64,000 nucleotides of DNA from Escherichia coli phage Wa28 (LC788710.1), one strand, 5' to 3'. Counted from the stretch's first letter, positions 23,269-56,408 are shown. Program-made: numbers and translations. The notes: a model not told the origin generated them from the letters alone.

Positions 23269-23750
23269 TATCTCTTACCTCCTCCTGCTAGAGCGGTAAT
23301 AAGATTCATATAGTTTTCGTCACCACTTCCAGCAATAATATTATTCTGAATATTAGTCTGGTTAGCCGGAGTACGGGCTGCTGCCTTCACTTTCTCCAGT
23401 TCTACCATCATTTTCATTTCTTCCATCTTCATCTTGTGCGCCTTCCAGAGAATATCCATGATATCCTGGTCAGAACCCATGCCAGTTTCTTCGAGTTCTT
23501 CCAACTTGCGCTTGATAACTTCATCAAGAACTCCGAATAAGCGGTCACGATTACGGAAGCCGCTTTCCATAAAGATATCGTTAAGATAGTTTTTAACTTC
23601 CCCACGATTCATTATATCACGGAATGCAATCTCGGACATTCCAAGACTACGAGCGGCGGCAGGAACATCACTACCGCACTGTAAATAGGCTTCAATAACA
23701 TCCATGCCTTCGGGAGACATGAGATCGGGAACTAATACATCATTTGCCAT
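23268..23750 (-). CDS. putative DNA-binding protein / small terminase candidate
   Basis: 160 aa; N-terminal HTH-like segment; adjacent to large terminase. Confidence 0.4.
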
Positions 23751-23760: not shown

Positions 23761-25542
23761 TTAGGTTAGGCGTTGAACTGTTACACGTAGTCTTGGCAAG
23801 AAAACAGCTGCCGCTTCTGCAGCGTGAATGATAACACCCAACTCAACGTTGCCATTACCAAGGTTTTTAATAGTATAAATATATCCGTTCCTACGGAAAG
23901 CAAACTCATCAGGCCTACTAGCCCAAGTTTGTGTATAACTATAGGAAGTTGTACTGTGATAAGGTACTAGATATCCAGGTGGCAGAGTAAGAATCTGGTG
24001 GAATACACCATCACCAGCTGTATAACTTTGTTGACGTCTACCCTGTACCTGCCAAGCGCTACCGCCGTAAGTACGTACAGGCATTCCAGCAGTATTAAGA
24101 TTACCCATAATAACTTCAGTAGTTAATATAACAGTAGAGTGAGCATTTGGTAATCCCAACCAAACTGTGGCCAAAGGTGTGTAGAAGTCACCAGCACCAG
24201 GGTAGGATGGAGTTATATCGTCCCCTACATAAGTACTTGCAACGTTGCCTGGGAATAACCTGAGGGGTACAGTACTAGGACTCCACACAGGTCCATGTTC
24301 ATTACCAATGGAGTTGGTATTAGTATCTACATACCATTGTTTACCTACACCAAATTTATATAAGCTAATTTGAGAAGCTGCACCACCATAGTTAACAGGA
24401 GACCACAACCCGCCATTACTAGAGCCGATAAATTCACATCGTGCAGTATTATCACCAAAAACTCCGGTATACGCAGCGTTATTACCAACATACTCCATAT
24501 CAGGGCGATAGCCTAAGTTTCCGAAAGCATTCTGGTTAATAAATTTATAGCCTGTATTTGGTAGGCTAACACCTTTAATAGTAAAATTAGACGGAGATAT
24601 TAGGATATCTGAACCGGTAAATGGATTACCAGAAACTCCCATACTACCATTAGAATAGCGCAGATTTAGCACATACCAAATAACCTTAGTTGGCGTAACG
24701 TTATACCAGTCCTGTACATATACCTTTCTAGCAGACTGAGCAGCCATATTAGAAGTAGAACCTCTACAAACATATATTTTTTCTGGGTATGCAGGAGATT
24801 GGTAAAGAACGTTTACGTTATCTGGTAGTACGCCTTTTTTACCTGCGAAGCCACGAATATTAGAACTACAAACATAAAACCAATCATGGCCTCTACCAGC
24901 AGAACCAATAGGCGCCTGCCAGTTAGGTTCCCAATAATCTGCGTTACCACCATCTAAAGGAACAGTAGAGACACCAGTTGGAAAACCCATAAGACTCCAG
25001 GCTCTGGCAATGGCTTCACCAGCAGAAACACCACCAGGTCTAAAGATCTGGAAACCAGAGGACTGTAGTAAACTGCCTCCAGAACCTTGCCTAGCAATAG
25101 ATTCCTCATGACCAAGACCACCATTATAGATATAAGTACCATGAGCTAAACTATCACCGATCGCAAAAGCAGATGTTACAGATAATTCAGCACCAGCACG
25201 TGGTGGGTCTTCAAAGAATGATAAGAACTGGCCAACCTGAGATTGAGTACCATTCAGAAATCCACGATGAGTACCGTTTATCTCAATAGCAGTTAATATA
25301 ACTCTACCCGGATCATTGGATTTAATATTTATAATATCCCAAGGCATCTGAGTAACAAAGTATCCATTACCTGCATTACCTAGGGCTGCTTCATAAGTCC
25401 CATCAACTAGGACAAATGGCATATCTGAGTGGAAGATACTATTAGTATTTGGAGAGTAGTGCTGATTTATATCACCACCATTAGCAGCGTTTAGAGATAA
25501 TACAGTTTTACCATCACTAAATTTTCCTGCGAAAAAACTCAT
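23761..25542 (-). CDS. receptor-binding protein (pb5/Oad-like)
   Basis: 593 aa Gly/Asn/Ser-rich ORF located between terminase and a divergent llp-like lipoprotein gene. Confidence 0.55.
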
Positions 25543-25625: not shown

Positions 25626-25892
25626 ATGAAAAAGTTACTAGCCATCGTAGTTGCAGCAGTAGTGTTGACGGGTTGTGTGCCAGCTCCCGAGCCATTTTGT
25701 AAGGCATATGTGAAGTCTTATGGTCATGTTGGTGAAGAACACTACGCTTTAGATATTCGAGAAGCACGTACTGTGGGCTACCGATTCCCTAAAACTCAGT
25801 TACGCACTAAGTTTGGGTGGTGGGATTTGTCACAGTTTGATCTCAAATATGGTGATTGCAAATTTAAACTAGAACAATCTGGTCACTTGTAA
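25626..25892 (+). CDS. llp: Llp-like lytic-conversion lipoprotein (receptor-blocking superinfection exclusion)
   Basis: 88 aa; signal peptide with lipobox LTGC; divergent and adjacent to the RBP gene. Confidence 0.6.
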   Translation: MKKLLAIVVAAVVLTGCVPAPEPFCKAYVKSYGHVGEEHYALDIREARTVGYRFPKTQLRTKFGWWDLSQFDLKYGDCKFKLEQSGHL

Positions 25893-26170
25893 TTAGTATA
25901 AAGTAAAAAGATCTCGAAGTAAACAAAAATTTTTATTTCTGGGATGAGGTACAGGTAGCAAACACAATGCAAGATGAAGAAAAGTCCTTTCAGGAACCTG
26001 TTAACTTTGAAATAAATCCCAGGAATAAAAAGCAATACATGATGCAATTGATGAAATCATTCAAGACGTCATAGAAGATACAATAGAAGACGTGATGGGA
26101 ACATCCTTCTTACTAGAAGAATCCGGCTTCGACGAAGTAATGGATCTAATCGGGACAGTCGTAATGGTTC

Positions 26171-26356
26171 GTGCAATTGCTAGGGTATTCCAAATACCAA
26201 GACTATAGGAGAAGCAAAGAGATGTCAGACGACAACAGAAGAAAGAACAGACGCGGGGAAGTGTACGAAAGTTGGATAAATAGTTTCGGATTCGGGACTG
26301 TGTTATTCTTTATCTTTGTACTCTTTTGGTTAGCAGCTATGGCGGGGTGGTTATAA
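26171..26356 (+). CDS. small membrane protein
   Basis: 61 aa; C-terminal hydrophobic helix VLFFIFVLFWLAAMAGWL. Confidence 0.3.
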   Translation: MQLLGYSKYQDYRRSKEMSDDNRRKNRRGEVYESWINSFGFGTVLFFIFVLFWLAAMAGWL

Positions 26357-26459
26357 TGGAAGTAGTAATTATTACTTTACTAGTTGTGGTAATTATAGGG
26401 CAGTGTATTTTAGATAACCACTTAGCTCGTATTGAACGTAAGCTGCGGGGAGATAAATA

Positions 26460-26654
26460 ATGGATTGGTTAGGACTTATTACACTTGTAGTATGGATTGT
26501 CTGGATTGTTGGATACATGACGTCACATCGTAATCGTATACAGAAGCTAGAGGATAAAGTCACCCAACTAAACATTAATATGGATAAGTTACTGGACTCC
26601 CAACGTAATGATCGGGCGCGTATTCACCAACTTGAGAGGGAATTAGATGTTTAG
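26460..26654 (+). CDS. small membrane protein
   Basis: 64 aa; N-terminal TM helix then charged tail. Confidence 0.3.
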   Translation: MDWLGLITLVVWIVWIVGYMTSHRNRIQKLEDKVTQLNINMDKLLDSQRNDRARIHQLERELDV

Positions 26655-26892
26655 CTTTGTAGCTATCTTCATTATCGGAGTGCTTGCGGGGATCTTCGGA
26701 ACACTCGGGGCGATTAACAAGCATCGTGAATACGTTGCGGGAATATCGCGGGAGCTTTCGGAAAGGGAGCGGAGGTTTGCGGAGAAACGTGCGGAGTTTG
26801 AGCGGGAGTGGTCGGATGGATCTCGGGCGTCGCGGAGGAGATTTCGTATGTCAGAATCAGGAGACAAGCCGGTAGACCGGTGTTCCTCCTAA
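26647..26892 (+). CDS. small membrane-anchored Arg/Glu-rich protein (GC-rich ORF)
   Basis: 81 aa; N-terminal TM helix; DNA has GCGGAG hexamer repeats and locally elevated GC. Confidence 0.35.
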   Translation: MFSFVAIFIIGVLAGIFGTLGAINKHREYVAGISRELSERERRFAEKRAEFEREWSDGSRASRRRFRMSESGDKPVDRCSS

Positions 26893-27055
26893 GTTAGCGC
26901 TAATTACCAATTCTCGAAATCTCATAAGATTACACATGAAGGTGTGCCCAGAGGTTACCTAGATGAGAATGAGTCTCATTACCGCCCCGGTACTTAGCAA
27001 GCTAATAGTCACACTATGTGATGATAACATAGTGTGACTATTTTATTTTTAATTG

Positions 27056-27790
27056 TTAGGCGACTTTTAATTTATCAATGAATTGTTGCGGGCTGCAACT
27101 ATATTCTGCGCGTTCTTCCTCGGTCATACCTTCCCAACACATTTTTAAACGGTCGGCTAGGAATTGATAATCATTATCATCATCTAATGATTCATCAATA
27201 AAGGTTTCACCGATCAATGTTACGCCGATTGATAGGATATCATTAACGGCTTGAGCGTCCAGCGTTTTAAATCCAGCACTTGCCGCCGCCGATAATACGC
27301 CTTTATGATCATCAATCATCGTAAAATCAGCGTTCGGATATAACTGTTTAAACAGTTCAAAGTAATAGCTTTTGTATACAGCGTCTTTACTATGATATAT
27401 TTCGCTAACCTTATCCGCTTCAAAGTATTTGTGTAATGTATCGCGAGAGAATACGCGGATATTGCTATTTCCGCGCCCTCGCAAGCCTTGTTTACGCAAA
27501 TAAAAGTAATCGCTTTTAGACATAAGGCGCGCGGTACAAATAATATTTAAAGTATTTGCATCATTCATACATTGGCGCATATATTCAACCAATGGCAATA
27601 AAGAATCCTGCATAATTAAATCATGTTTACAGGCTTCGCGTGAATACTTATTTAAATTTAAATTCCCGTTATCATCAAAGCAAGGCGCTACACGGTGGAA
27701 AGAATTAATGATAGTTCCGTCTAAGTCCCAAATCATAACGCGGGAAATATGCGGGAAAGCGCGGGCAATATTCAAGGTTACTTGATTCAT
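27056..27790 (-). CDS. dmp: 5-prime deoxyribonucleotidase (Dmp-like, HAD superfamily)
   Basis: 244 aa; HAD motif I DLDGT near N-terminus; first gene of a pre-early-like block. Confidence 0.65.
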   Translation of the reverse strand: MNQVTLNIARAFPHISRVMIWDLDGTIINSFHRVAPCFDDNGNLNLNKYSREACKHDLIMQDSLLPLVEYMRQCMNDANTLNIICTARLMSKSDYFYLRKQGLRGRGNSNIRVFSRDTLHKYFEADKVSEIYHSKDAVYKSYYFELFKQLYPNADFTMIDDHKGVLSAAASAGFKTLDAQAVNDILSIGVTLIGETFIDESLDDDNDYQFLADRLKMCWEGMTEEERAEYSCSPQQFIDKLKVA

Positions 27791-27877
27791 TTGTTACATT
27801 CTCCATTTAAGGGATTTAGGTTAATTCAATCTTGCCAGCTAATTATATTGGATTAGCTGGCAATGTTCAATTAACTA

Positions 27878-28270
27878 TTAATTAGTGAGGCCATACGCTA
27901 GCGCGTCACCAATAAAGCTAATATCCTCACCATGTACGCTAGAACGAATCCCCGCGCAAGTGTAAACCATCGCGCTAGCTTCTGGATTGCAGACCGGACA
28001 CGGCTTAACAACTGCAAACGCTAGACCGGATTTAAGCGCATCAATAATAATTGTTTGCACTGTCAAAGTATCAGCGTAAACGCCTTTTGCTTTCGTATGG
28101 CTTGCCACTTTGCCGGTATCATAAGCAAAGGTAGTAACCTGCAAAGCGTCGTTATAATTCAGCAAATCAAAATTAACTTGCCCCGCCTCGACGTGATAAC
28201 GTTCACCATTAGAATAAACTAGAACGATGGAAGAAGTAGCACGATCAAAAGGAATGTTTTGGTTTTTCAT
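27878..28270 (-). CDS. hypothetical protein
   Basis: 130 aa ORF. Confidence 0.4.
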   Translation of the reverse strand: MKNQNIPFDRATSSIVLVYSNGERYHVEAGQVNFDLLNYNDALQVTTFAYDTGKVASHTKAKGVYADTLTVQTIIIDALKSGLAFAVVKPCPVCNPEASAMVYTCAGIRSSVHGEDISFIGDALAYGLTN

Positions 28271-28302
28271 GTTTATGACTCCAGATTATTTAATTACGGG
28301 AT

Positions 28303-28581
28303 TTATTGAAAAAATACATTTAAAGATAAATCAGTTTTACGAAAATATGTTTCGTCGCCGTCTTTCCTTTCTTGATTAAGGTAATCGCCTGTCATTACCT
28401 GAATATGATCTTTTTCGAAAAAGATCATATTTTCGCCAATATTACTATCCCATACGGCATACATTCCCGCGTACATTCCACGGGTAACTAAATAAACGCA
28501 ACTATCAAAAGACATTTCAGACCATGCAATATCTTCTAAACAATTGCTATCAGGGATAGATATATTAATTTTACTAGCCAT
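28303..28581 (-). CDS. hypothetical protein
   Basis: 92 aa ORF. Confidence 0.4.
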   Translation of the reverse strand: MASKINISIPDSNCLEDIAWSEMSFDSCVYLVTRGMYAGMYAVWDSNIGENMIFFEKDHIQVMTGDYLNQERKDGDETYFRKTDLSLNVFFQ

Positions 28582-28633
28582 TTAATAAACCTTTTATTAA
28601 TGGCGGTATATTTCAACCGCCGATTAAATTTAA

Positions 28634-30298
28634 TTATGCAAAGAATTTACCGTTTTTGAAATCAATCAAAGTACGTTGCCCGTTTGCATAGGTAATTAAA
28701 TGCGTTTGCGTCCAGCTTGACGCGCCCACGTTGTAGCCCATATCAAGGGAACCAGCAACGCCAGCGGTATAAACGCCGCCGTAAATGCTAGCCGTGTGAG
28801 TGTGACCAGTGTTAAGGCGTCCCAACTTTTTAAACTGCTTAGGATTGCCCCGACTGCCGTTAATGCCATTGTGACCATGTACGCCGCATTCAATGCCAGC
28901 GATTTTAAAGGACTGGTCAGTAGTCAAAAAAATGGCGTTAAATTCGCATCCTGCAACGTTTCTAAGCGCATAATCTAACACGTTAAAGGTATCATCCTTT
29001 TCAGCAATAGCGGCGTAAATCGCAGCGTTTAGACGGTGATACAGTTCCGCGTTTGCGGGATCATCTTTAATGTTTGCGTTACGATCATCTAACCAGCGGG
29101 ATAATGCTAAATCATGGTTAGATTCCACAATGATTGTTTGACTAAAATCACGTTCCATAGATTCTAATACGCGTCCAGTATCGATAAGATCATCAATAAC
29201 TTTATCACGTCCGGCGGCGTATTGTTTCGCAAGGAATACACCACTAGCGCGGTTATGATGGTTACGCGATGTAAAATCATGCACGTCATGAATAAATTGA
29301 TATTTCGGTTTAAGAATATCAAGCAAGCTGTTTTCACTAGCCCATGAAGCGACGGCGCAATCATCATCTAATTTTTCGGCGTGAATATCGCCATATTGCA
29401 AGCCTAGAACATGATCGGACGTTTCAAAACATCCGGTAGGCATAGCGCAAACATTCAAATCATAGAACATTCCGCTTTCATCCATTGTTTCAATCTGGCG
29501 AGCATAAAATTCGCCGTCGTCGTCGAACTCTACCAGCAAAGCGCCATAATTATGTAAAGCCTCAGCTTTTTGACCTGCTTTCTGCTGAATGTAGTTTTTA
29601 AGCGTAGCCGTTCCGGTTGAATACATACGGCACACTACTTCACCTTTTAACGCTGGCACACTTTCAGCGGTAATTTTAGCGTGACCAATTGCCAGACCTT
29701 CAATATTTAAAGCCGTGGCGGTTTCTGCGAATCCTGAAAGCGGGTAATCTGCCGTTGGTAAAACGTTAATTTCAGCCATGAAAGCAAAGCGGCGGTTATT
29801 TAAAAATACGTTTTTATCACAAACATATTTATCAAATGCGGGATCGTATTTAATACCGTTTGCCCCTTCCCCGTTCTGAAATCCGTTTTTGTTGTAAATG
29901 AATTTGCTAACAAGTAATTCAGCGCCGCAATATTCAGCGAATTTTTCCAGACTTGCTAAAAAGTTTTTATGCGGGAAAGTATTATTTTGAATCGACGTTA
30001 GAATAAAACGGCGACCGGACTTAACTTCCCATTGCTCAACGGTGCTAGAAACAATTCCCGCCGCCTCTGGGCGATCATCGTTTTTAATCGCCTTTTCGGC
30101 TTTTGCCGCTTTCGGTTTCGCTGGTTTATTTGCTTCCAGCCAGTCACAAATTGCGGTCGAATGTTTCGGCGTACCATAAACAGCTTTTGAAATATCGTCG
30201 CAAACTTCCAATTTAGTAGCGCGTAAACGCTTACCGTAGAAGTTAAAATCTGCGGCCATTTTCAAAATTTGAGCTTGTTTTTCTGCGGAAATATTCAT
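28634..30298 (-). CDS. A1: A1-like pre-early protein with metallophosphoesterase motifs
   Basis: 554 aa; GDIH and GHTH metallophosphatase-like motifs; synteny with dmp and A2-like gene. Confidence 0.6.
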   Translation of the reverse strand: MNISAEKQAQILKMAADFNFYGKRLRATKLEVCDDISKAVYGTPKHSTAICDWLEANKPAKPKAAKAEKAIKNDDRPEAAGIVSSTVEQWEVKSGRRFILTSIQNNTFPHKNFLASLEKFAEYCGAELLVSKFIYNKNGFQNGEGANGIKYDPAFDKYVCDKNVFLNNRRFAFMAEINVLPTADYPLSGFAETATALNIEGLAIGHAKITAESVPALKGEVVCRMYSTGTATLKNYIQQKAGQKAEALHNYGALLVEFDDDGEFYARQIETMDESGMFYDLNVCAMPTGCFETSDHVLGLQYGDIHAEKLDDDCAVASWASENSLLDILKPKYQFIHDVHDFTSRNHHNRASGVFLAKQYAAGRDKVIDDLIDTGRVLESMERDFSQTIIVESNHDLALSRWLDDRNANIKDDPANAELYHRLNAAIYAAIAEKDDTFNVLDYALRNVAGCEFNAIFLTTDQSFKIAGIECGVHGHNGINGSRGNPKQFKKLGRLNTGHTHTASIYGGVYTAGVAGSLDMGYNVGASSWTQTHLITYANGQRTLIDFKNGKFFA

Positions 30299-30406
30299 AA
30301 CTAAATCAACTCCTATAAAGGGATAAATATTAATACTGGCAATATTGCCAAATATAACGCCTTGCCTGAAGTGAGGACAATTTAAAAGGCGTTATAATTT
30401 GCAATA

Positions 30407-30652
30407 TTATTCTAGAATTGGCATAAGACTAGAACTAAAACCGCAACTAATAGCCAGCGTTAAAAATATAATCGCTAGATATTTTTGTTTATTAGCTTGA
30501 CGTTTAAACATATCAGCGGCATAAGCTGAATTAATGCCGATAATAGAGATTATATATTTGCCGTAATTAAATATAAATATAGCGGCAACTATAAATAAAC
30601 CTAAAATAAACGCTTCACTAGGGAAGAAAATCATTTTAATAACTCCGGTCAA
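30407..30652 (-). CDS. small integral membrane protein
   Basis: 81 aa, three hydrophobic segments. Confidence 0.4.
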   Translation of the reverse strand: MTGVIKMIFFPSEAFILGLFIVAAIFIFNYGKYIISIIGINSAYAADMFKRQANKQKYLAIIFLTLAISCGFSSSLMPILE

Positions 30653-30664
30653 AGGGAAATTATA

Positions 30665-30682
30665 GCGGGGAATATTCCCCGC
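30665..30682. terminator. perfect 18-bp palindrome GCGGGGAATATTCCCCGC, likely bidirectional terminator
   Basis: read directly, just downstream of A2-like stop. Confidence 0.5.
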
Positions 30683-30692
30683 TAATTAGAAT

Positions 30693-31109
30693 TTATTCAC
30701 CTGCGGCCTGTTTTACTTCCTCCGCTACGCCTAACAATTGCGCTACGGCGTCCAGCGTTTCCAGTTTAGCACTTTCAAGGCTTGCCAGATCGTCGGCATC
30801 TTTTACGATACCTGAATCAATGGCGTGTTTAGCGATGACGCGCACATAGTGAGCTTTACGAATTGAGCTACCGCCGCCAACTTTACGCGGTTTATCGCTT
30901 TTCTGGTATGCTTTTGCGCTTGTCAGTTTAGAACGTACAGAAACAGGACTTGCAGCGCCAACGGCGGCGGCAATTTCTTTCAGGCCGTCACTGTTAGCAA
31001 ATTCAATTCCGCTTTTAGCGACCATTTCAGAATACATAGAAACAGCTTTTTCGGTGTTTTCTTCGTTCCAAGAGAATTTTGCTGTTTTTTCGGTTTTAAC
31101 GTTAGACAT
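30693..31109 (-). CDS. A2: A2-like pre-early DNA-binding protein
   Basis: 138 aa; position upstream of A1-like gene. Confidence 0.45.
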   Translation of the reverse strand: MSNVKTEKTAKFSWNEENTEKAVSMYSEMVAKSGIEFANSDGLKEIAAAVGAASPVSVRSKLTSAKAYQKSDKPRKVGGGSSIRKAHYVRVIAKHAIDSGIVKDADDLASLESAKLETLDAVAQLLGVAEEVKQAAGE

Positions 31110-32099
31110 AATTTAATACTCCATTCAATTATTAATTAAGGGATTATGATTAACTAATGTTAATCCATATATTCCCCATATTTCAGGGGAATATAAAGTT
31201 AGCACTAATTAGCTAATAGCTTGCCATTTATCATCTTTCTGAATGATCTTTACAACGTCGCCGGATTTAACGCGAACATTATAAATTGGCTTGCCGTGGT
31301 TACTGCGTTCCGTTTCCGCAAAGACCGCTTCAATTTTATCGAAAGGATCTAGCGCCGCACCTTTAATACGTTCGGCTTTTCCAGTTAATTCATCCGTTTT
31401 AGTAACGAAAGGAATAAATACAGATTGACCTACTTTCGGCGCGGTAAACTTCCCCGCCGTTGTAGTCTGGCCTTTCGTTTCCGTCTTGCCGTCCTACGAG
31501 ATAAATAATAGGTTATTCCCGAAAATGGCGCAAGCGTATTTTTGTAAAGAAACGTAAAGACAAACGCCACCGCACCACGTCCAGCGGCGCACTAAATTTA
31601 ATGAAACGGGCGCGCGAATAACACCAAAACAACCATTTTAGCAAGTAATTTTTTCATTTATATCTGCTCTAGGGTACTTGACAAAATCTAAAATCCTCGT
31701 GGTGAGGTTTTCTCGGTGTACCCCTTATGATTGCCTATCTTTTCCTTTGAGGCGCTTAGAATCGCTTACAGAGCGTTTTAGACCCTGTTAATAACTTATA
31801 CAAAAAGCAAAAATGAAATTTAATGAGTTATCCACTTGATTTTTCAAAAAAGTATTTTCTGCTGTTATTTTTCATTGACAAATAAGTTTAGACGTGCATT
31901 GATTGGTTAGCAGACTAACAATCGCTAGGATGATAATCACGCTGGTGGATTGTAGCAGCCGAAACAGTTAGCAGACTATTAATCATGGAAAATCTCATTA
32001 GCCAACTAACTATTTCATATTATATAATATACTTATAAATTAAAGAGAAATAATAACTATAAGAAACTATCGGCTAAGTGAGAACCACTATCATTTAAC

Positions 32100-32220
32100 T
32101 TATGCACAAAGTTATCCACAGCACTTTTTGACTTGACACAATAAGCAACATTTTGGCGACTTATCCACAGACTTATATACAGGTTATCCTACTGTATAAA
32201 TATACAGGGTAGAATGGTAG
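32100..32220. repeat. left copy of ~110-bp imperfect inverted repeat with DnaA boxes and LexA-box-like palindrome
   Basis: TTATCCACA at ~32111 and ~32161; CTGTATAAATATACAG at ~32200; reverse complement matches 36180-36320. Confidence 0.7.
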
Positions 32221-32456
32221 CAGTAACAACCGCAATCAAATTTAAGCGGTCTAAAACGCGCTACACGGCGTTTTCTCACTGCTGCCCTTATTATAATAAA
32301 GCCTTGTGTACGCTTACAGAGAGCTAGAAATAGAAAACGCGCGGTTATCATAAAAACAGGCAGTAAGCAAGAAATAAAAAACCTTTTCTTTTTTCTTGCC
32401 CCTAGCGAACAATTATATATATCATTCACTCACCGATTAACGAGGGAGACAAAGAA

Positions 32457-33458
32457 ATGTCTACTGTAAGAATTGCAGTACCAGCAAACGCCACTATTAT
32501 TAATGGTAGTTTGCGCAACCTGCTAGATGGTAGTAGTGCGGCAAGCGTACAACATACCGCTACTATTGTAGAAAAGATTCACGATGAAATTTTAGACAAT
32601 AATGATACTCATTATTCAGTTGATGATTTCACGCTATTACTAGACCAGACAAGGGCGCTAGTAATTTTCAACCGTGATTATCACATTTTCCGTAATAGTC
32701 GGGGAACTGATATTGATTTTATCATTGTTGGTTATAGTGAGTCTCATAGTGGTTACATTGCGCGATTATATAACGTGCAAGAAAAAGAGCAGGTAACAGC
32801 AACAAAAGTAAATAATATCAGACTGGATAGTGTCGGATCGTTATTAAATAGTATCTGGCGTGAATTATCATCCAGTTATAAAGGTGCTGATAGTGACGCA
32901 ATCGAAACAACTGGCGTATTGTGTTTTGAACGCGCTACGGGTAACATGTTGATTCCTAATGATTATTTAGAGTATGGGAATGAATCAAACGTTGCAAACG
33001 CTGGATTTACACTTCTCCCGCTTGACAATGTAGCAAAACAGGCTGTACAATCTCAAACTTCAAGCGCAAATGCGCAAACTACTGAAAATAAAGGAAATAT
33101 TATGTCTAAAGTATCTTCTATCGTTGCCGCTAATAAATCCGCCGTTATTAACGCTGCTAAACTGGAAGCGGGTAAAATTGCACTGACTCAAATCACAAAA
33201 GTAGCGGCGAAAAAAGCGCCGTTTATGATTAAAGGGTATATTGATACGCCGATTGGTCGTGTAGTGATCGCTAACCTGCTGAGTGTAGCGGTTGACCAGT
33301 ACGCCCCGACTAACCAGAAAGCGAAAGCGGTAGCAGGCGCGGCAATGGAAGCGGCAATGTTGGAAATGGTACAGAGTTTCAATATTGCTGAAATGATCGA
33401 TGAAATGGTAAAAGGCATTGACATTTCTACCTTTACCCAAAACACCGAAACAGAATAA
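32457..33458 (+). CDS. hypothetical protein (first gene of opposite-strand block)
   Basis: 333 aa ORF with Shine-Dalgarno GAGGGAG upstream. Confidence 0.5.
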   Translation: MSTVRIAVPANATIINGSLRNLLDGSSAASVQHTATIVEKIHDEILDNNDTHYSVDDFTLLLDQTRALVIFNRDYHIFRNSRGTDIDFIIVGYSESHSGYIARLYNVQEKEQVTATKVNNIRLDSVGSLLNSIWRELSSSYKGADSDAIETTGVLCFERATGNMLIPNDYLEYGNESNVANAGFTLLPLDNVAKQAVQSQTSSANAQTTENKGNIMSKVSSIVAANKSAVINAAKLEAGKIALTQITKVAAKKAPFMIKGYIDTPIGRVVIANLLSVAVDQYAPTNQKAKAVAGAAMEAAMLEMVQSFNIAEMIDEMVKGIDISTFTQNTETE

Positions 33459-33467
33459 TAATTACTA

Positions 33468-33497
33468 GCGGGGATTATTCCCCGCTTTACTATTTCC
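33468..33497 (+). terminator. rho-independent terminator
   Basis: palindrome GCGGGGATTATTCCCCGC followed by T-rich tract. Confidence 0.55.
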
Positions 33498-33524
33498 CTG
33501 TTAATTGTTAGGAGACTAATTATT

Positions 33525-33836
33525 ATGCAACTGAACCAAACCATGTTGGCGCAATTAGCCGAAAAAATGCCGAATAGCCCACACGTTAATTATTCAGATG
33601 ATAAAAGCAATATTCCTGTATGGGAAAAGCAAGGGCGTCCCTTTTTATGGGAACATGTAGAAAGCGCTAATAATTATCATGCTTTCTTTGATCGTGGTTA
33701 TGGCTGGCTATGTATTTTTGTAGGTGAAACTTTGCTGGATTATGGAATGGATGAAATAGTCCGTGATGACGTAATTTTCTTGAATAAAGGATTTTACGAT
33801 GTAGCAAATTCTCTTTATTTCCCTGTTAATTGTTAG
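33525..33836 (+). CDS. hypothetical protein
   Basis: 103 aa; preceded by conserved leader TTTCCCTGTTAATTGTTAGGAGACTAATTA. Confidence 0.45.
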   Translation: MQLNQTMLAQLAEKMPNSPHVNYSDDKSNIPVWEKQGRPFLWEHVESANNYHAFFDRGYGWLCIFVGETLLDYGMDEIVRDDVIFLNKGFYDVANSLYFPVNC

Positions 33837-33846
33837 GAGACTAATT

Positions 33847-34341
33847 ATGTCAGAAGAAAAATATGGCTTTTCGCTAGAAAGTGTGAATGAAGCTAAACAC
33901 GATATGATCGTTTTAGTTGATTGTCATACTGGCTATTGCGGGGAGGGCTGGACGGAGGAACATTTTGTTCCCGCTGGCTGTGATCTGGACGCTTTCGCAA
34001 ACGAACACGCATATGATAATGCTTCTCGTTTCGGTAGCGATGGGGAAGAAGATGAAGAAACAGGGGAATGGATTGAAAATGATAATGTTTATGCGAGTAT
34101 TTATCATTATCAATTGAGTAAATCCGGTATTTATGTAAATGGCGGCGATCCTATTAATACCGTTATGAAACTAATTATTAAACACGGTGGCGCGGAAATA
34201 ATTGGTAACAAGGCGTTATTATATGCAAATCGATTAAAACAGCTTGTTTATATTCCTGATAATTCCCGTTGGGATGAATATGCCGTTTTACAGAAAGAAC
34301 TAAAACGCTGTTTCGGTGTGGAAGCATTAGAAATAGTCTAA
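33847..34341 (+). CDS. hypothetical acidic protein
   Basis: 164 aa; same conserved leader/RBS as previous gene. Confidence 0.5.
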   Translation: MSEEKYGFSLESVNEAKHDMIVLVDCHTGYCGEGWTEEHFVPAGCDLDAFANEHAYDNASRFGSDGEEDEETGEWIENDNVYASIYHYQLSKSGIYVNGGDPINTVMKLIIKHGGAEIIGNKALLYANRLKQLVYIPDNSRWDEYAVLQKELKRCFGVEALEIV

Positions 34342-34355
34342 TGTAAAGTTTTGTA

Positions 34356-34383
34356 AAGGTCGCCTATTATGGCGACCTTTTTT
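34356..34383 (+). terminator. rho-independent terminator
   Basis: 10-bp stem AAAGGTCGCC/GGCGACCTTT then T-run. Confidence 0.7.
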
Positions 34384-34448
34384 GTTATAATGCCTTTACA
34401 CCGAAACGGTGGGTTGAAAATTTTCCCTGATTTCTAGGAGGCGTTAAA

Positions 34449-34676
34449 ATGGTACATTCATCATCTTCTGCAATTTTTAACGGTATGGAATGGGTATCCG
34501 TTCCCGCTATTGTCAGCGTTATGGTTTCTGAGTTCGGCATAGGTAAAACTTATGTTACCATTCAGGGGCTTTACGACAATGACAAGATTGACCAGCAAAC
34601 CGCCGGATTTTTGCTGGATGAATTGAAAGCTAACCATTGCACTAAAAAGCAAGCGGCAAAAATTGTTTTAATGTAA
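34449..34676 (+). CDS. hypothetical protein
   Basis: 75 aa; RBS TCTAGGAGG. Confidence 0.4.
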   Translation: MVHSSSSAIFNGMEWVSVPAIVSVMVSEFGIGKTYVTIQGLYDNDKIDQQTAGFLLDELKANHCTKKQAAKIVLM

Positions 34677-34874
34677 TTATTAAAGGGGGTATATTATCCC
34701 CTAATTTCTAGGAGCTAATAAAATGGTTATTTTTCGATCTATTCTGGCTAGTATCTTGGGCGCTATTTTATCGCTGTTTGTAATAGCTTTCGGCGTTCAC
34801 GTGGTTATTATTGGAGCAGGTATCGCGGGGTTTTCTTACTTGTTAGGCTGTATGACTGGTAAAGGGGAATAAAA

Positions 34875-35087
34875 ATGTTAAAGAATGTTTCCCTTGCCCG
34901 TTCCAAAGGTTTTAAGCTGGTGGATGTTAACACGTTCGAGCGTCCAGATTGTAAAATTGAATATGTAGCACGCAACAAAAATGCTTTCCGTGTTACAGAA
35001 AAGAAGTTTGACAAGCGCGGCAATTTGGTAGCCGAAACGATTAAACACTTTGCCACCTTTTACGCTGCATTTCGTGGGGTATTATAA
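34875..35087 (+). CDS. hypothetical protein
   Basis: 70 aa ORF. Confidence 0.4.
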   Translation: MLKNVSLARSKGFKLVDVNTFERPDCKIEYVARNKNAFRVTEKKFDKRGNLVAETIKHFATFYAAFRGVL

Positions 35088-35193
35088 TGGAAAGGGCAAT
35101 TGTTAAAATGTTAACTTTTGTTTGTGGCGTGTCTAGTGCTGCAATGTTGATCACGCTAGTGATTATGATTATCCGTGACGCGAGGATCTTTTA

Positions 35194-35538
35194 ATGGTAA
35201 TTTATGAGGGCAATCGCTTTATTACTAATTGCCGTCCGGCATTATTAGCAAACTATTTAAATCAGCTTTCACCAGTTTATAAAGGCGTAGTTAATATCTA
35301 TGAGGGCAAAGCACATTATAAAATTTCTGCCGTTGTCGCCCGTGAACTAGCGTTTCAATTTTTAACTTTTGGGTCTTGTGACGTTCAGGTTATGGGGGAA
35401 GCGTTAATAGCGGAAAATGAAAATGAATTTATTGACATTTTCCGCAAAGTATGTACGGAGCGCCTGATTATGAAAGGCGCATATATTCAATCAACCGCTG
35501 AAAGTATTGAAACAGCGTTTCGAAAGGTGGCGCAATGA
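35194..35538 (+). CDS. hypothetical protein
   Basis: 114 aa ORF. Confidence 0.45.
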   Translation: MVIYEGNRFITNCRPALLANYLNQLSPVYKGVVNIYEGKAHYKISAVVARELAFQFLTFGSCDVQVMGEALIAENENEFIDIFRKVCTERLIMKGAYIQSTAESIETAFRKVAQ

Positions 35539-35735
35539 CTAAAGATGAAGCACTAGAAAAAATGAAACAAGGTTTCAAAGTTAGTAATCAATATTTTACT
35601 AGCGATGAATTTTTGTACATGAAAGAAAACGGCGTGATCATGTCAGAAGATGGTTACAATTTTAATGATTGGTTTTTCAATATTCGCAAGGGGGAGGAAT
35701 GGAAGCTAGACGGTTGGAGCGTTTACCGTGAATAG
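35535..35735 (+). CDS. hypothetical protein
   Basis: 66 aa; start overlaps previous stop (ATGA). Confidence 0.4.
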   Translation: MTKDEALEKMKQGFKVSNQYFTSDEFLYMKENGVIMSEDGYNFNDWFFNIRKGEEWKLDGWSVYRE

Positions 35736-35861
35736 CTGGTGGCGAAAAACACAAAGCCATAAATCTAATAATACCGCTGGGAAACATTCCCAGCGTTTAC
35801 GATTTGGTAATGGCTTTACAATGATATTGATAATCATTCTCATTCTAGGAGCGATGGCGTT

Positions 35862-36056
35862 ATGAGTGATAAAATTGTTGTAACTAAAACTACTGTTACC
35901 GTTGATACTTTCTTTGTGCCTGATACGCTGGAAAATCGGCAAGCGGTGGAGCGTGGCGATTATGATAAAGTGATTTATGATAACGATGGTTACTACCAAC
36001 ATTTGGTAGACTCCTACGGCGAAAGCGAAAAGATCACACATCGACTACCAGACTAA
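35862..36056 (+). CDS. hypothetical protein
   Basis: 64 aa; RBS TCTAGGAGCG. Confidence 0.4.
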   Translation: MSDKIVVTKTTVTVDTFFVPDTLENRQAVERGDYDKVIYDNDGYYQHLVDSYGESEKITHRLPD

Positions 36057-36179
36057 TAATAACGGGGCGCAACTATCTGCCCCCTTTTCTGGCCTCCTCC
36101 AATTTTGCCCTTATTAAAATACCTCCTCCAAAAATAAACGCGTTAGAATGCGTTACAGAGCGTTTAAAGGCTATATTAG

Positions 36180-36320
36180 ATTATTCTCCTACTGGAATAT
36201 ACTGTATATTTATACAGTAGAATAACCTGTTAATAAGTCTGTTGATAACGCCTCAAAATCGCTAGGATTTTGTCAAGTCAAATCATGCTGTTAATAAACC
36301 TGTGGATAACTTAAATAGCA
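36180..36320. repeat. right copy of inverted repeat with near-consensus LexA-box-like palindrome and DnaA boxes
   Basis: TACTGTATATTTATACAGTA at ~36196; TGTGGATAA at ~36301; reverse complement aligns to 32100-32220. Confidence 0.7.
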
Positions 36321-36480
36321 GTGTTTCTCACTTCCCTTTCTAAATGCGAATCATTATCATTATGCAACTCATTCGCATTCAATTCTGTAAATGATAACCA
36401 TTCTCATTCCACTTTCTAAACGCGAATCATTATCATTCGCATTCAACTTTTTAAATGAGAATCAATCTCATTATCATTCG
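36300..36480. repeat. AT-rich imperfect palindrome repeats (GCGAATCATTATCATTCGC family, about 4 copies)
   Basis: direct reading. Confidence 0.7.
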
Positions 36481-36521
36481 CATTTCGGCAGGCAGGGCAT
36501 TTTCATTTTGCCCTGCGCTTT

Positions 36522-37123
36522 TGTGCAAATCCGACATTGCTCCACGGGTGTTACGTGCGGGCGTGTATGTGCGAATCCGACAATTTTTGGTAGTGTGCAA
36601 ATCCGATGGGAAATATTTTTATAGTGTGCGAATCCGACAATGAATTTTCCTAAAAACTCCAGCAATCCGCAACTGCGATGCAATCCAGCTGGATTTACTA
36701 GAGTATGTGCAAATCCGACAAGTGTTAAGGTGTGCGAATCCGATAAGATTTTTGTGATTTCGATTGGAGGGTGTGTGATTGTGTGGGTTTGGGGAGAAGT
36801 TGAGAGAGTGAGAGAAAATAAGGGTAGAAACTGGAGTGGGCAGCATGGGTGGCGTGAAACGCCTGGTTTGCTGCGTTTTTGGGGATAATGCGGGATGTTT
36901 TGGCTAGAATTGAGATTAGGGGAGATAAAGCGAAATTTTATTAGCAAAATGGGGCAAAATCGCTTGACAAGTGAAAATTCCTGTGGCTCTAAAAAACTCA
37001 GGCAAATATGGGCCTTCGGCCCGAAATAATGCTGCTATTTTCAGTGTTCCTAAAAACTTTGGAGACTCCTATCAATGTGCAAATCCGACCATAAATTTCT
37101 AGAAACACAGTGTGCAAATCCGA
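36522..37123. repeat. direct repeat array of 14-15-mer GTGCRAATCCGAYA (about 9 copies, irregular 30-45 bp spacing); candidate injection-stop-signal-like region
   Basis: copies near 36522, 36568, 36595, 36626, 36706, 36731, 37077, 37110 plus a degenerate one near 36666. Confidence 0.75.
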
Positions 37124-37285
37124 TAGCAATTTCCAGAAATGTGTTTTGGAAAAATGTCTCCTAGAAATAACCGCCCTCCCTATAACCGCCCTGTATTAAA
37201 CCGCCTATTGCTGGAGTTTCTAGGAACATGAAAACCGCCTGAGTTGGCGAGAGTTTTCCTAGAAACTTAGGAGTCTACTAGAAAG
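37085..37285. repeat. palindromic TTYCTAGRAA motif, about 6 copies
   Basis: direct reading (tttctagaaac, ttccagaaatg, ctcctagaaat, tttctaggaac, ttcctagaaac, tactagaaag). Confidence 0.6.
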
Positions 37286-37587
37286 TGTTGTGCTATCCTA
37301 GCAGATGAGCGGCAACAGGTGTATCATCTTGAACATTAATTTATCTATTCAACAGTATTAGTTTTTATATAAGTATAAGATCCCCAGGGGATTGTGAGAG
37401 ATGCTCCACCCCTGGGATACGAATTGCGTGAGATGGTACAAAACTTCTGAAGATTTCCCTAGCCCTCCGACAAGCTACGGGGAAATAGAAGTTTCCCATC
37501 CACCATCCGTATCCGGGTGGATCTCTTTATTCTATGTTATTTCATAGAGTTATTATAACATGCAGAAATCATAACGTCAAGTAGAGT

Positions 37588-38478
37588 TTATTCATCGAAC
37601 ATGAGATTTCCTTTCATCCCCATCTCCGCATACTCCATGAGTTCTCCTAGGGATCTCACAGGGTAATCTACTTTACTGAAGTTATCATAGATCTTACATG
37701 AACTCTCGTACAACTCGTTAGGTATCTGCAATTTGTTATCAGTTAGCTTCTCATAACGTGTAGAAGATTTTGTACCTTCAAACAGAACTGCAATAACTGC
37801 GGCGATTTGTTTGGTAAGATCATCTGCTCCTAGAATTATTCTATTAATAGCAATCGTTACTTCATGCTTAGGTTTCACAGGTGGAAGGATAGGCTTGAGA
37901 TCCTTAGGTAAAGGTTCTGTTCCTAGGAATCCTTCTTTTGTGCGGAACCAATAATTATCTAGATCAGATATTGTCTTAGACTTATTCCATATAGTGAAGC
38001 AAGGTTTATTTCCTTCACGATCTCTGTATTCACGAACTGGAAGATAATGATCAGGGAATGAGTTGAGTGCATCATGCATTGGTGAGCCTGTCTTTTTAAA
38101 TGACAAACCGTACAACTCATTATAATTCATAACTTCATCTTCATAAACATGGAAATCTTTATATGCTGGAAGATTAAACCATTCCTGAAGTGAATGAACT
38201 GCAAAACGTTGTGCCCAAGCATGCATCACAAGAACTCTGTACTCTTTTACTTCATCTTTTGGAGAAGTACCTCTAACTGTTCTAGCTGACCGAATACAGA
38301 ACATCTCAACAACACGTCTCTCGTTTAAAGAAAGCTCAGAGTAACAACGTTCATGGCAACCTTCTAGCATTTCTAGAAGTTCACGTAGTTTCTCTACATC
38401 GACCGGTGGAAAAGGTCTCTCTTCCACCGCGAATTTACCAACTACACCTTTCGGCTTTCTATTACTATAAAATCCCAT
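37588..38478 (-). CDS. hypothetical protein
   Basis: 296 aa ORF. Confidence 0.45.
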   Translation of the reverse strand: MGFYSNRKPKGVVGKFAVEERPFPPVDVEKLRELLEMLEGCHERCYSELSLNERRVVEMFCIRSARTVRGTSPKDEVKEYRVLVMHAWAQRFAVHSLQEWFNLPAYKDFHVYEDEVMNYNELYGLSFKKTGSPMHDALNSFPDHYLPVREYRDREGNKPCFTIWNKSKTISDLDNYWFRTKEGFLGTEPLPKDLKPILPPVKPKHEVTIAINRIILGADDLTKQIAAVIAVLFEGTKSSTRYEKLTDNKLQIPNELYESSCKIYDNFSKVDYPVRSLGELMEYAEMGMKGNLMFDE

Positions 38479-55881: not shown

Positions 55882-55957
55882 TGGTAGTTAGTAGTGGATT
55901 TGAACCACTGTAGTCGCTCCGTATGAAGGAGGTGCATAACCACTCTGCCAACTAACT
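55882..55957 (-). tRNA. tRNA-Met/Ile2 (anticodon CAT)
   Basis: hand-folded cloverleaf; T-loop TTCAAAT; anticodon loop TTCATAC; CCA encoded. Confidence 0.6.
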
Positions 55958-55963
55958 ATAATT

Positions 55964-56039
55964 TGGTACTCCGACTTGGGATCGAACCAAGATTTGACGA
56001 TTATCGGTCGCCTGTTCTAACCGTTTGAACTATCGGAGC
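55964..56039 (-). tRNA. tRNA-Ile (anticodon GAT)
   Basis: cloverleaf; anticodon loop CCGATAA (C at position 33). Confidence 0.55.
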
Positions 56040-56040
56040 A

Positions 56041-56334: not shown

Positions 56335-56363
56335 TTGGTTTCCCTCTCATTAATTTATGTAAA

Positions 56364-56392
56364 TATTATAACAAGAAATAAGAGAGAAGGCA
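56364..56392 (-). promoter_or_regulatory. T5-type sigma70 promoter (TTGCCT-17-TATAAT)
   Basis: conserved architecture. Confidence 0.55.
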
Positions 56393-56408
56393 AATGAATT
56401 TTTAAATT

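What the first reader, a model, noticed from the sequence alone, without database searches (positions are those of the whole stretch)
26000..37600. Window spans a collapsed terminal-repeat (pre-early) module joining the late and early regions
Gene order is late module (tail fiber to terminase, RBP, llp), then dmp-like, A1-like and A2-like genes, then the early region with tRNAs. As I recall, in T5 the pre-early genes lie in ~10-kb terminal direct repeats. Finding them once, between late and early genes, implies the assembly circularised or collapsed the repeat. The physical genome ends should then map near 26-27 kb and ~37 kb.
Basis: partly seen in the sequence, partly recalled or inferred. 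Interest (0 to 1): 0.5.

Follow-up and report, generated by a model that had tools for sequence, protein, structure and literature searches.

The report
Collapsed T5-type terminal repeat junction
The window is an ordinary T5-like phage genome whose two identical 10-kb end repeats appear as one copy, joining the late genes to the early genes. This is a common and already documented way of assembling and depositing this phage family.

Summary

- **What the window is.** It is an Epseptimavirus (T5-like) genome, 97.8% identical to phage Shin27 over 24-40 kb and in the same orientation as T5.
- **Gene order.** TerL, TerS, a Pb5-like receptor-binding protein, an Llp-like lipoprotein and four small membrane ORFs come first. 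One copy of the pre-early module follows (dmp, A1, A2, the rightward operon and the injection-stop repeat region). Then come the early genes and 25 tRNAs.
- **Repeat boundaries.** Alignment to relatives deposited with both repeats puts the repeat at 26,946-36,989 (10,044 bp). Four Epseptimavirus left ends start at the base matching 26,946 (GCCCAGAGG...) and T5's one base earlier. Five right ends, T5 included, stop at the base matching 36,989 (...CCTGTGGCTC).
- **Flanks.** They are colinear with the right-unique and left-unique regions of EscoHU1, so the window reads right-unique, one repeat, left-unique. That is a circularised or collapsed assembly, equivalent to a concatemer junction.
- **How common it is.** At least about 84% of public T5-like records carry one repeat copy, and three papers describe this behaviour.
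- **Not tested.** No reads were available, so the second copy and the ends themselves were not observed.
- **Side observation.** A 480-bp deletion, seen in no listed database hit, removes the start of the conserved p007 gene.

The parts
21952..23268 (-). Terminase large subunit, in the late module of the right-unique region
   Evidence: 96% aa identity to T5.155. Pfam Terminase_6N and Terminase_6C.
23268..23750 (-). Terminase small subunit
   Evidence: 95% aa identity to T5.156.
23761..25542 (-). Receptor-binding tail protein (Pb5/oad type, divergent from T5)
   Evidence: 29% aa identity to T5 Pb5 over the full length, E 1e-48. Lies in DNA about 97.6% identical to EscoHU1, under the gene annotated 'receptor-binding protein'.
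25626..25892 (+). Llp-type receptor-blocking lipoprotein (not homologous to T5 Llp)
   Evidence: Signal peptide and lipobox MKKLLAIVVAAVVLTGC. No tblastn hit to T5.158. Same position as EscoHU1_154 'receptor-blocking protein'.
26171..26892 (+). Four small membrane-protein ORFs (homologs of T5.159-162), the last genes of the right-unique region
   Evidence: tblastn hits to T5.159, T5.160, T5.161 and T5.162. In T5, vB_SenS-3 and EscoHU1 the right terminal repeat starts 42-54 nt after the last of these ORFs.
26946..36989 (.). The single copy of the T5-type long direct terminal repeat (10,044 bp). It corresponds to the first-step-transfer (pre-early) DNA plus the injection-stop region. The predicted left physical end is at 26946 and the predicted right physical end at 36989.
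   Evidence: Left-end sequences of vB_SenS-3, EscoHU1, Stitch and Seafire, and the reversed record NBSal002, start at the base matching 26946; T5 starts one base earlier. Right ends of T5, vB_SenS-3, EscoHU1, Elw and HdH2 stop at the base matching 36989. BLAST alignments to the EscoHU1 left repeat begin at 26946 = EscoHU1 base 1, and those to its right repeat end at 36989 = EscoHU1 base 123079.
27004..27042 (.). Hairpin of 19-nt arms (18 of 19 complementary) with a T-run, a terminator-like site just downstream of dmp
   Evidence: Inverted repeat I12, 95% complementary. Terminator-like site. Seafire annotates a terminator at the equivalent place.
27056..27790 (-). dmp, deoxynucleoside-5'-monophosphatase
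   Evidence: 92% aa identity to T5.001. phrog_415.
27878..28270 (-). Homolog of T5.002 (pre-early, function unknown)
   Evidence: 73% aa identity. phrog_4576.
28303..28581 (-). Pre-early ORF at the position of T5.003, with no similarity to it
   Evidence: No tblastn hit to T5.003. phrog_18783.
28634..30298 (-). A1, DNA transfer protein
   Evidence: 90% aa identity to T5.004. phrog_1745, E 7e-242.
30407..30634 (-). Small membrane protein (T5.005 type)
   Evidence: 44% aa identity to T5.005. The corresponding Shin27 gene carries Pfam Phage_Bf23_A1.
30693..31109 (-). A2, DNA-binding protein
   Evidence: 89% aa identity to T5.006. phrog_1725.
31212..31445 (-). Homolog of T5.007 (p007) that has lost its start codon. 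A 480-bp deletion has its junction at 31441-31447.
   Evidence: 77% aa identity to T5.007 residues 6-83. The frame is open but has no ATG/GTG/TTG that would give an ORF of 35 aa or more. The deletion has 7-bp microhomology GCGGTAA relative to BSP22A. All 15 listed database hits need two pieces.
32076..32207 (.). IRC-spacer-IRD (Repeat Region 2), with four DnaA-type boxes in two pairs separated by 3 bp
   Evidence: Inverted repeats I1 and I2 pair with 36202-36333. Boxes at 32100, 32112, 32161 and 32173. Architecture as described in Davison 2020.
32457..33458 (+). Homolog of T5.011 (DUF7566), first gene of the rightward pre-early operon
   Evidence: 56% aa identity. Pfam DUF7566, E 7e-141.
33525..34341 (+). 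Two accessory pre-early ORFs (103 and 164 aa) absent from T5, each preceded by the same 33-nt sequence
   Evidence: phrog_16959 and phrog_6741. No DNA match to T5 across 33465-34337. Exact 33-nt direct repeat D3.
34449..36056 (+). Rest of the rightward pre-early operon: homologs of T5.012, T5.013, T5.014, T5.015 and T5.017
   Evidence: tblastn identities of 72%, 62%, 91%, 88% and 80% respectively. phrog_4227 and phrog_4379.
36202..36333 (.). IRD'-spacer-IRC', the core of the proposed injection stop signal, with four DnaA-type boxes
   Evidence: Inverted repeat with 32076-32207. Boxes at 36228, 36240, 36289 and 36301 on the minus strand. Aligns to the matching part of the T5 iss region. Described in Davison 2020.
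36322..36484 (+). Array of about 40-nt direct repeats (...AAATGNGAATCATTATCATT...) in Repeat Region 3
   Evidence: Repeat families D1, D4 and D9. Conserved in T5.
36518..36519 (-). Site homologous to the T5 major single-strand interruption (nick)
   Evidence: T5 annotates the nick at 9748/9749 in CCCTGCGC|TTTTGTGCAAATCCGAC. The same 25 nt are present in the window. The nick itself was not observed.
36523..37123 (+). Eight copies of GTGCRAATCCGA (the T5 'DRD' repeats). Six lie inside the repeat and two lie beyond its right end.
   Evidence: Ten matches in the window, eight of them clustered here, against 0.25 expected by chance. Conserved in T5. Nine DRD copies are described for T5.
36990..37587 (.). 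Non-coding start of the left-unique (second-step-transfer) region
   Evidence: Aligns to T5 10220-10664 and to EscoHU1 9915-10177.
37588..38478 (-). First early-region gene (T5.018 homolog)
   Evidence: 42% aa identity to T5.018.
55882..63965 (-). Early-region cluster of 25 tRNA genes
   Evidence: ARAGORN. Colinear with the EscoHU1 tRNA region at 27.9-35.2 kb.

Best explanation
**What it is.** The window comes from a T5-like (Epseptimavirus) phage. Its virion DNA is predicted to be linear, with a direct terminal repeat of about 10,044 bp at both ends. In this sequence the two identical copies are represented once. The right-unique end (late genes, RBP, llp, small membrane ORFs) runs into the repeat at 26,946. 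The repeat runs into the left-unique start (early genes, tRNAs) at 36,989/36,990.

**How it arises.** An assembler merges two identical 10-kb ends into a circular path, and the path is then opened at an arbitrary point. The same sequence corresponds to a concatemer junction.

**What the repeat does.** It is the canonical first-step-transfer module. It holds a leftward operon (p007, A2, small membrane protein, A1, two small ORFs, dmp), a rightward operon (T5.011-T5.017 homologs plus two accessory ORFs) and the non-coding injection-stop region.

**Shown here.** Gene identities, single copy within the window, colinearity of both flanks, and conservation of the terminal sequences and of the iss architecture.

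**Inferred.** That the virion carries two copies, that the ends lie exactly at these bases, and the two-step injection function (from T5 literature).
For: **Closest relatives and gene identities**
- 554 phage records match. The best is Shin27 (97.8% identity), a 112,034-bp record with the same late-repeat-early arrangement.
- dmp, A1, A2, TerL and TerS are 89-96% identical in protein to those of T5.

**Boundaries**
- T5, vB_SenS-3, EscoHU1 and Stitch annotate repeats of 9.5-10.2 kb at both ends, and Seafire annotates one at its left end. All have dmp-A1-A2 at the left of the repeat.
- the window holds the right-unique-to-repeat junction and the repeat-to-left-unique junction. The terminal sequences are conserved (GCCCAGAGG... 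at 26946...CCTGTGGCTC at 36989).
- EscoHU1 88,917-113,162 matches window 2,665-26,942. EscoHU1 1-9,914 and 113,166-123,079 match window 26,946-36,989. EscoHU1 9,915-35,132 matches window 36,990-63,385.
- 5 of 11 two-copy records end exactly at the base matching 36,989.

**Copy number and frequency**
- there is no second copy in the window.
- an A1 query finds 454 records but only 527 places, so at least about 84% of records hold one copy. Many of them hold it at an internal position.

**Literature**
- Davison notes GenBank T5-likes with dmp, A1 and A2 in the late region because of assembly problems with the repeat.
- phiR2-01 assembled to 112,795 bp, showed 2x coverage over the repeat, and is really 122,696 bp.
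- collapse into a circular topology with a >2x coverage segment, confirmed by PFGE.

**Internal architecture**
- the iss architecture matches the published T5 description (paired inverted repeats, eight DnaA-type boxes, DRD array, nick site).
Against: - No reads, coverage or sequence outside the 64-kb window are available. The second copy and the physical ends were therefore not observed; both are inferred by homology.
- Deposited right ends of relatives are not unanimous. Relative to 36,989, Stitch ends at +5, Kenya-K37 at -29, 100268_sal2 at -53, saus111K and saus176N at about -210, and Seafire at about -472.
- It is not known how the ends of some reference records were determined.
- The sequence cannot distinguish an assembly collapse from a real concatemer or circular junction.
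Confidence: 0.9

Rival explanations
1. The junction is a real molecule rather than an assembly artefact. The DNA sequenced would include replicative concatemers or a circular intermediate in which neighbouring genome units share a single repeat copy. That is the accepted picture for T7-type concatemers, and Davison proposed a one-repeat circle for T5.
For: The sequence is exactly what such a junction would look like. Davison's model posits circle formation carrying one complete genome (abstract).
Against: Assembly collapse alone is enough to produce it, and it is documented for virion-DNA libraries of this family. Nothing in the window identifies the sample type. This rival predicts the same ends and the same repeat, so it changes nothing about the biology of the module.
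Confidence: 0.06
2. This phage has no fixed terminal repeats. It packages by a headful mechanism, so the circular map with one pre-early module is the true genetic map.
For: No direct evidence. It simply cannot be excluded without reads.
Against: TerL and TerS are 95-96% identical to those of T5. The sequences flanking both T5-type cut sites are conserved, nearly to the base. The iss region, nick site and DRD array that straddle the repeat end are all retained. Relatives tested by coverage and PFGE have fixed long repeats.
Confidence: 0.02
3. The arrangement is a misassembly or chimera that has moved the pre-early module to a wrong place. This is the kind of error Davison suspected in some GenBank T5-like records.
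For: Davison reports records with dmp, A1 and A2 in the late region or late genes in the repeat, and attributes them to assembly trouble. The window does contain a 480-bp deletion in Repeat Region 1 that no listed database hit shares.
Against: Both junctions reproduce, base for base, the two genuine junctions of complete genomes, namely right-unique to right repeat and left repeat to left-unique. Nothing is rearranged other than the merging of two identical copies. In 79 records a single place covers at least 80% of window 24-40 kb.
Confidence: 0.02

Closest known systems
Terminal repeat (first-step-transfer / pre-early region) of Escherichia phage T5, NC_005859: 1-10,219 and 111,532-121,750
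   Same: - The leftward operon has the same order: dmp, T5.002, A1, T5.005, A2, T5.007.
- The rightward operon is the same: T5.011 to T5.017.
- The non-coding architecture is the same: IRC-spacer-IRD paired with IRD'-spacer-IRC', paired DnaA-type boxes, DRD array and nick-site sequence.
- The repeat ends at the same base on the right and within one base on the left.
- The flanking genes are the same: T5.159-162 on one side and T5.018 on the other.
   Different: - DNA identity is only about 75-85%.
- There is no hegG HNH endonuclease, and no homologs of T5.003, T5.008, T5.009 or T5.016 were found.
- Two extra ORFs lie at 33525-34341.
- The p007 homolog lacks a start codon because of a 480-bp deletion.
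- Only one copy is present in the sequence, joined to both unique ends.
Epseptimavirus genomes deposited with both repeats: EscoHU1 LC659915 (repeat 9,914 bp), Stitch NC_027297 (9,982 bp), vB_SenS-3 MT004791 (9,455 bp)
   Same: DNA identity is about 86-98% and the whole window is colinear with EscoHU1. The first 40 nt of the left end match at 39 positions. The last 40 nt at the EscoHU1 right end are identical.
   Different: Those records show the virion arrangement, with the repeat at both ends and late and early regions not adjacent. The window shows one copy in the middle.
Single-repeat or permuted T5-like records such as Shin27 LC788709, SE20 MK972709 and vB_EcoS-26175I to V
   Same: They show the same collapsed representation. 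Shin27 has the module at 27.4-38 kb of a 112,034-bp record, and SE20 has A1 at 28.9 kb. The five 26175 records hold dmp at five different offsets.
   Different: Shin27 differs by about 2% and by indels at 31.2-31.5 kb and 35.5-36.0 kb. None of the listed records shares the 480-bp deletion.

Membership tests
T5-type long direct terminal repeat / first-step-transfer module (Markadamsvirinae) | dmp, A1 and A2, in this order and on the same strand, at the left end of the repeat | tested here: met
   dmp 27056-27790, A1 28634-30298 and A2 30693-31109, all on the minus strand and 89-92% identical in protein to T5. PHROGs agree.
T5-type long direct terminal repeat / first-step-transfer module (Markadamsvirinae) | A large untranslated region at the right end of the repeat. 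It should hold IRD'-spacer-IRC' paired with IRC-spacer-IRD, about eight DnaA-type boxes in pairs 3 bp apart, and DRD repeats. | tested here: met
   Inverted repeats 32076-32207 and 36202-36333. Eight boxes in four pairs with 3-bp gaps. Eight DRD motifs.
T5-type long direct terminal repeat / first-step-transfer module (Markadamsvirinae) | Repeat boundaries at the conserved terminal sequences, flanked by T5.162-type and T5.018-type genes | tested here: met
   Boundaries at 26946 and 36989.
T5-type long direct terminal repeat / first-step-transfer module (Markadamsvirinae) | A second, identical copy at the other end of the linear virion DNA | not testable with these tools
   Only one copy is in the window. 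The rest of the contig and the reads are not available.
T5-type long direct terminal repeat / first-step-transfer module (Markadamsvirinae) | Two-fold read coverage and read-end pile-ups at the repeat boundaries, with a virion DNA about 10 kb longer than the collapsed contig | not testable with these tools
   This needs raw reads or PFGE. It has been shown for the relatives phiR2-01 and Kenya-K37.
T5-type long direct terminal repeat / first-step-transfer module (Markadamsvirinae) | A site-specific nick in the minus strand near the right end of the repeat | tested here: inconclusive
   The 25-nt sequence around the T5 nick is identical at window 36510-36534. The nick itself cannot be seen in a sequence.
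Genus Epseptimavirus | High nucleotide identity and colinearity with classified members | tested here: met
   97.8% identity to Shin27 over 16 kb. Between 86% and 98% identity to EscoHU1, colinear across the window. Both are classified as Epseptimavirus. Only 64 kb of the genome was compared.

The most novel reading that the evidence does not exclude
The join of late genes, one repeat and early genes could be a real intracellular molecule rather than an assembler's merge of two ends. Candidates are the one-repeat circle that Davison proposed as the T5 replication intermediate, or a concatemer junction. Separately, the 480-bp deletion may be real. It removes the start of the otherwise consistently conserved p007 gene and the region homologous to the T5 promoters P-H22 and P-D/E20. 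If real, those elements would be dispensable for a viable T5-like phage.
Probability: 0.05. Interest if true: 0.35.

Novelty: already known. Interest (0 to 1): 0.08.

Why it matters
**Practical value only.**
- The true genome of this phage should be about 10 kb longer than a collapsed contig.
- The record should be re-opened at 26,946 and the segment 26,946-36,989 duplicated at the right end.
- Genes in the repeat are present in two copies per virion.
- Restriction or CRISPR target sites inside 26,946 to about 36,500 are the ones exposed during first-step transfer.

**No new biology.** The architecture matches the published T5 description element for element.

**A caution for whoever checks the ends with reads.** The conserved nick site lies about 470 bp inside the right boundary. 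It coincides to within 1 nt with the point where the PhageTerm-derived repeat annotation of the relative Seafire ends.

Tried and rejected
**Tried without result**
- I looked for the source contig by exact protein look-up, to read its length and ends. A1 and the T5.018 homolog are on record only in Shin27. The T5.011 homolog is not on record at all. The origin of the window therefore stayed unknown.
- I looked for a second, partial copy of the repeat inside the window and found none.
- I compared the two cut sites by eye for a shared sequence that could be a terminase site. I saw no convincing similarity.
- I searched for the DRD motif near the left boundary. All clustered copies lie around the right boundary only. 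A role for DRD as a symmetric cut-site signal is therefore not supported.

**Limited value**
- The Pfam copy available here gave no hits for dmp, A1 or A2. Precomputed hits on the Shin27 genes do name T5-specific families: Phage_T5_dNMPase, Phage_T5_A2 and Phage_Bf23_A1.
- The sigma-70 promoter scan was not informative: 49 sites found against 38.9 expected.

**Rejected explanations**
- Headful packaging, chimeric misassembly, and any prophage or host context.

Full report
**Identity of the window.** Almost all ORFs longer than 80 aa lie on the minus strand. The exceptions are two short plus-strand blocks at about 25.6-26.9 kb and 32.4-36.1 kb. There are 25 tRNA genes at 55.9-64.0 kb on the minus strand. 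A megablast of 24,000-40,000 against 50,697 phage records found 554 matching records, nearly all Salmonella or Escherichia T5-like phages. The best is Escherichia coli phage Shin27 (LC788709, genus Epseptimavirus), at 97.8% identity over 96% of the query and at almost the same offset in its record. The window is not Shin27 itself. It differs by indels, and exact-protein look-ups did not identify a source contig.

| Gene | Window coordinates | Identity to T5 protein |
|---|---|---|
| TerL | 21952-23268(-) | 96% |
| TerS | 23268-23750(-) | 95% |
| Pb5-type receptor-binding protein | 23761-25542(-) | 29% |
| T5.159-162 homologs | 26171-26892(+) | 38-88% |
| dmp | 27056-27790(-) | 92% |
| A1 | 28634-30298(-) | 90% |
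| A2 | 30693-31109(-) | 89% |
| T5.011 to T5.017 homologs | 32457-36056(+) | 56-91% |
| T5.018 to T5.022 homologs | from 37588(-) | 42-78% |

- The 88-aa ORF at 25626-25892(+) has a lipoprotein signal and lipobox. It is not similar to T5 Llp. It lies in DNA 97.6% identical to EscoHU1, where the gene is annotated 'receptor-blocking protein'.
- PHROGs agrees on dmp, A1 and A2 and on the Ung-related endonuclease family. Pfam confirms the terminase.
- The module occurs once in the window.

**Locating the repeat boundaries.** T5 annotates its repeats at 1-10,219 and 111,532-121,750. dmp lies 124 nt from the left end, and T5.162 and T5.018 lie just outside the two boundaries. Three Epseptimavirus records annotate both copies, and Seafire annotates a PhageTerm-predicted copy:
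- vB_SenS-3, 9,455 bp
- EscoHU1, 9,914 bp
- Stitch, 9,982 bp

*Left boundary.* The left ends of all four Epseptimavirus records begin GCCCAGAGGTT..., which is unique in the window at 26,946. T5 begins one base earlier in the alignment. The reversed circular record NBSal002 ends at the complement of the same base.

*Right boundary.* T5, vB_SenS-3, EscoHU1, Elw and HdH2 end at ...AAAATT(C/T)(C/T)TGTGGCTC. This corresponds to window 36,989.

*Length and spread.* The repeat unit is therefore 26,946-36,989, or 10,044 bp. Other deposited right ends scatter around this point, which probably reflects how each was derived:
- Stitch, +5
- Kenya-K37, -29
- 100268_sal2, -53
- saus111K and saus176N, about -210
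- Seafire, about -472

The Seafire end falls within 1 nt of the homolog of the T5 major nick.

**The flanks.** A megablast of the whole window against EscoHU1 gives three colinear blocks:
- window 2,665-26,942 matches EscoHU1 88,917-113,162, the end of the right-unique region (the right repeat starts at 113,166);
- window 26,946-36,989 matches EscoHU1 1-9,914 and also 113,166-123,079;
- window 36,990-63,385 matches EscoHU1 9,915-35,132.

The alignment to the left repeat starts exactly at 26,946. The alignment to the right repeat stops exactly at 36,989. So the window reads right-unique, one repeat, left-unique. This is not the virion molecule. It is what results when two identical 10-kb ends are merged. 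Nothing else is rearranged, which argues against a chimera.

**How ordinary this is.**
- An A1 query finds 454 records but only 527 places, so at most 73 records (16%) hold two copies.
- In an evenly spaced sample of those records, single-copy ones have A1 either about 1.6-3.3 kb from the record start or at internal positions. Examples are 28.9 kb in SE20, 48.6 kb in 26175IV and 67 kb in Sds2.
- The five vB_EcoS-26175 records hold dmp at five different offsets.
- Davison (bioRxiv 10.1101/866236, section 2.3) writes that many GenBank T5-like sequences have dmp, A1 and A2 in the late region because assembly software has difficulty with the large terminal repeats.
- For phiR2-01 the joined contigs were 112,795 bp. 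The repeat was recognised by about 2000x coverage against about 1000x, and the genome is 122,696 bp (PMC8624392).
- For Kenyan T5-like phages the authors describe the two repeats overlapping during assembly into a single segment of more than 2x coverage in a circular topology. They confirmed the larger size by PFGE (PMC10783031).

**Anatomy and likely function of the module.** The non-coding architecture matches the published T5 description.
- A 132-bp inverted repeat pairs 32,076-32,207 (IRC-spacer-IRD) with 36,202-36,333 (IRD'-spacer-IRC').
- Together the two arms hold eight DnaA-type boxes, in four pairs separated by 3 bp: 32100/32112, 32161/32173, 36228/36240 and 36289/36301.
- An array of about 40-nt repeats lies at 36,322-36,484.
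- The 25 nt around the T5 nick are identical at 36,510-36,534.
- Eight copies of GTGCRAATCCGA (the DRD repeats) lie at 36,523-37,123 and straddle the repeat end. Ten matches were found in the window against 0.25 expected by chance.

By inference from T5 literature, the left copy enters the cell first. Host RNA polymerase transcribes the two divergent pre-early operons. Transfer pauses in the iss region, and A1 and A2 are needed for the rest of the DNA to enter. None of this was tested here.

**Differences from T5 and from close relatives.**
- There is no hegG, and no homologs of T5.003, T5.008, T5.009 or T5.016 were found.
- Two extra ORFs (103 and 164 aa) lie at 33,525-34,341. Each is preceded by the same 33-nt sequence.
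- A clean 480-bp deletion has its junction at 31,441-31,447, flanked by 7-bp microhomology (GCGGTAA). The flanks are otherwise almost identical to BSP22A.
- This deletion removes the start codon and first five codons of the p007 (T5.007) homolog and a whole DUF7416 gene. It also removes the region corresponding to about T5 4,468-5,016, where T5 annotates promoter P-H22 and part of P-D/E20.
- All 15 listed database hits need two pieces to cover this junction, so none of them shares the deletion. It may be a real deletion or an assembly error in Repeat Region 1.

**Verdict.** The phenomenon and the module are both already known, so interest is low. Direct proof (coverage, read ends, PFGE) could not be obtained with the tools available.

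Noticed in passing
window 31441-31447 (deletion junction); affected gene remnant at 31212-31445(-): There is a clean 480-bp deletion relative to BSP22A and the other 14 listed hits, with 7-bp microhomology GCGGTAA at the junction. It removes the start codon and first five codons of the p007/T5.007 homolog, which Davison lists among the four consistently conserved pre-early ORFs. It also removes a whole DUF7416 gene and the region homologous to the T5 promoters P-H22 and part of P-D/E20. All 15 listed hits need two pieces to cover the junction. It could be a real deletion or an assembly error in Repeat Region 1.
   Followed up: partly
window 36518/36519, compared with L009 (Seafire NC_048110) position 9592: The PhageTerm-predicted terminal repeat of phage Seafire ends at ...GCCCTGCG|CTTTTGTGC. 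That is within 1 nt of the homolog of the T5 major single-strand nick and about 470 bp short of the end used by T5, EscoHU1, vB_SenS-3, Elw and HdH2. End calls based on read starts may therefore be misled by the conserved nick in this family.
   Followed up: partly
window 36523-37123: Eight same-strand copies of GTGCRAATCCGA (the T5 DRD repeats) straddle the right repeat boundary, six inside and two outside. None occurs near the left boundary. They are highly conserved between the window and T5 although the surrounding sequence diverges. I found no function assigned to them.
   Followed up: partly
window 33491-33523 and 33816-33848: An exact 33-nt direct repeat (TATTTCCCTGTTAATTGTTAGGAGACTAATTAT) lies immediately upstream of each of two accessory pre-early ORFs (103 aa and 164 aa) that T5 lacks. 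Weaker copies of its core occur at 31967 and 34162. This looks like a reused ribosome-binding or leader cassette.
   Followed up: no
window 23761-25892: The receptor-binding protein is only 29% identical to T5 Pb5, and the adjacent lipoprotein has no similarity to T5 Llp. Published work on BF23 describes this receptor-binding / receptor-blocking pair as a modular locus. The receptor specificity here is probably not FhuA.
   Followed up: no
window 34875-35087 and 35194-35538; L021 12788-13135: The annotations disagree. RefSeq and PHROGs name the T5.014 homolog (70 aa) 'endonuclease nicking abasic sites generated by host Ung'. The precomputed Pfam hit Phage_T5_AP_Endonuclease instead falls on the Shin27 counterpart of the T5.015 homolog (115 aa).
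   Followed up: no
window 214-2829(-): The L-shaped tail fibre gene at the window start matches EscoHU1 LtfA only at its N-terminal end; the match starts at window 2665. The distal, receptor-binding part of the fibre has therefore been exchanged.
   Followed up: no
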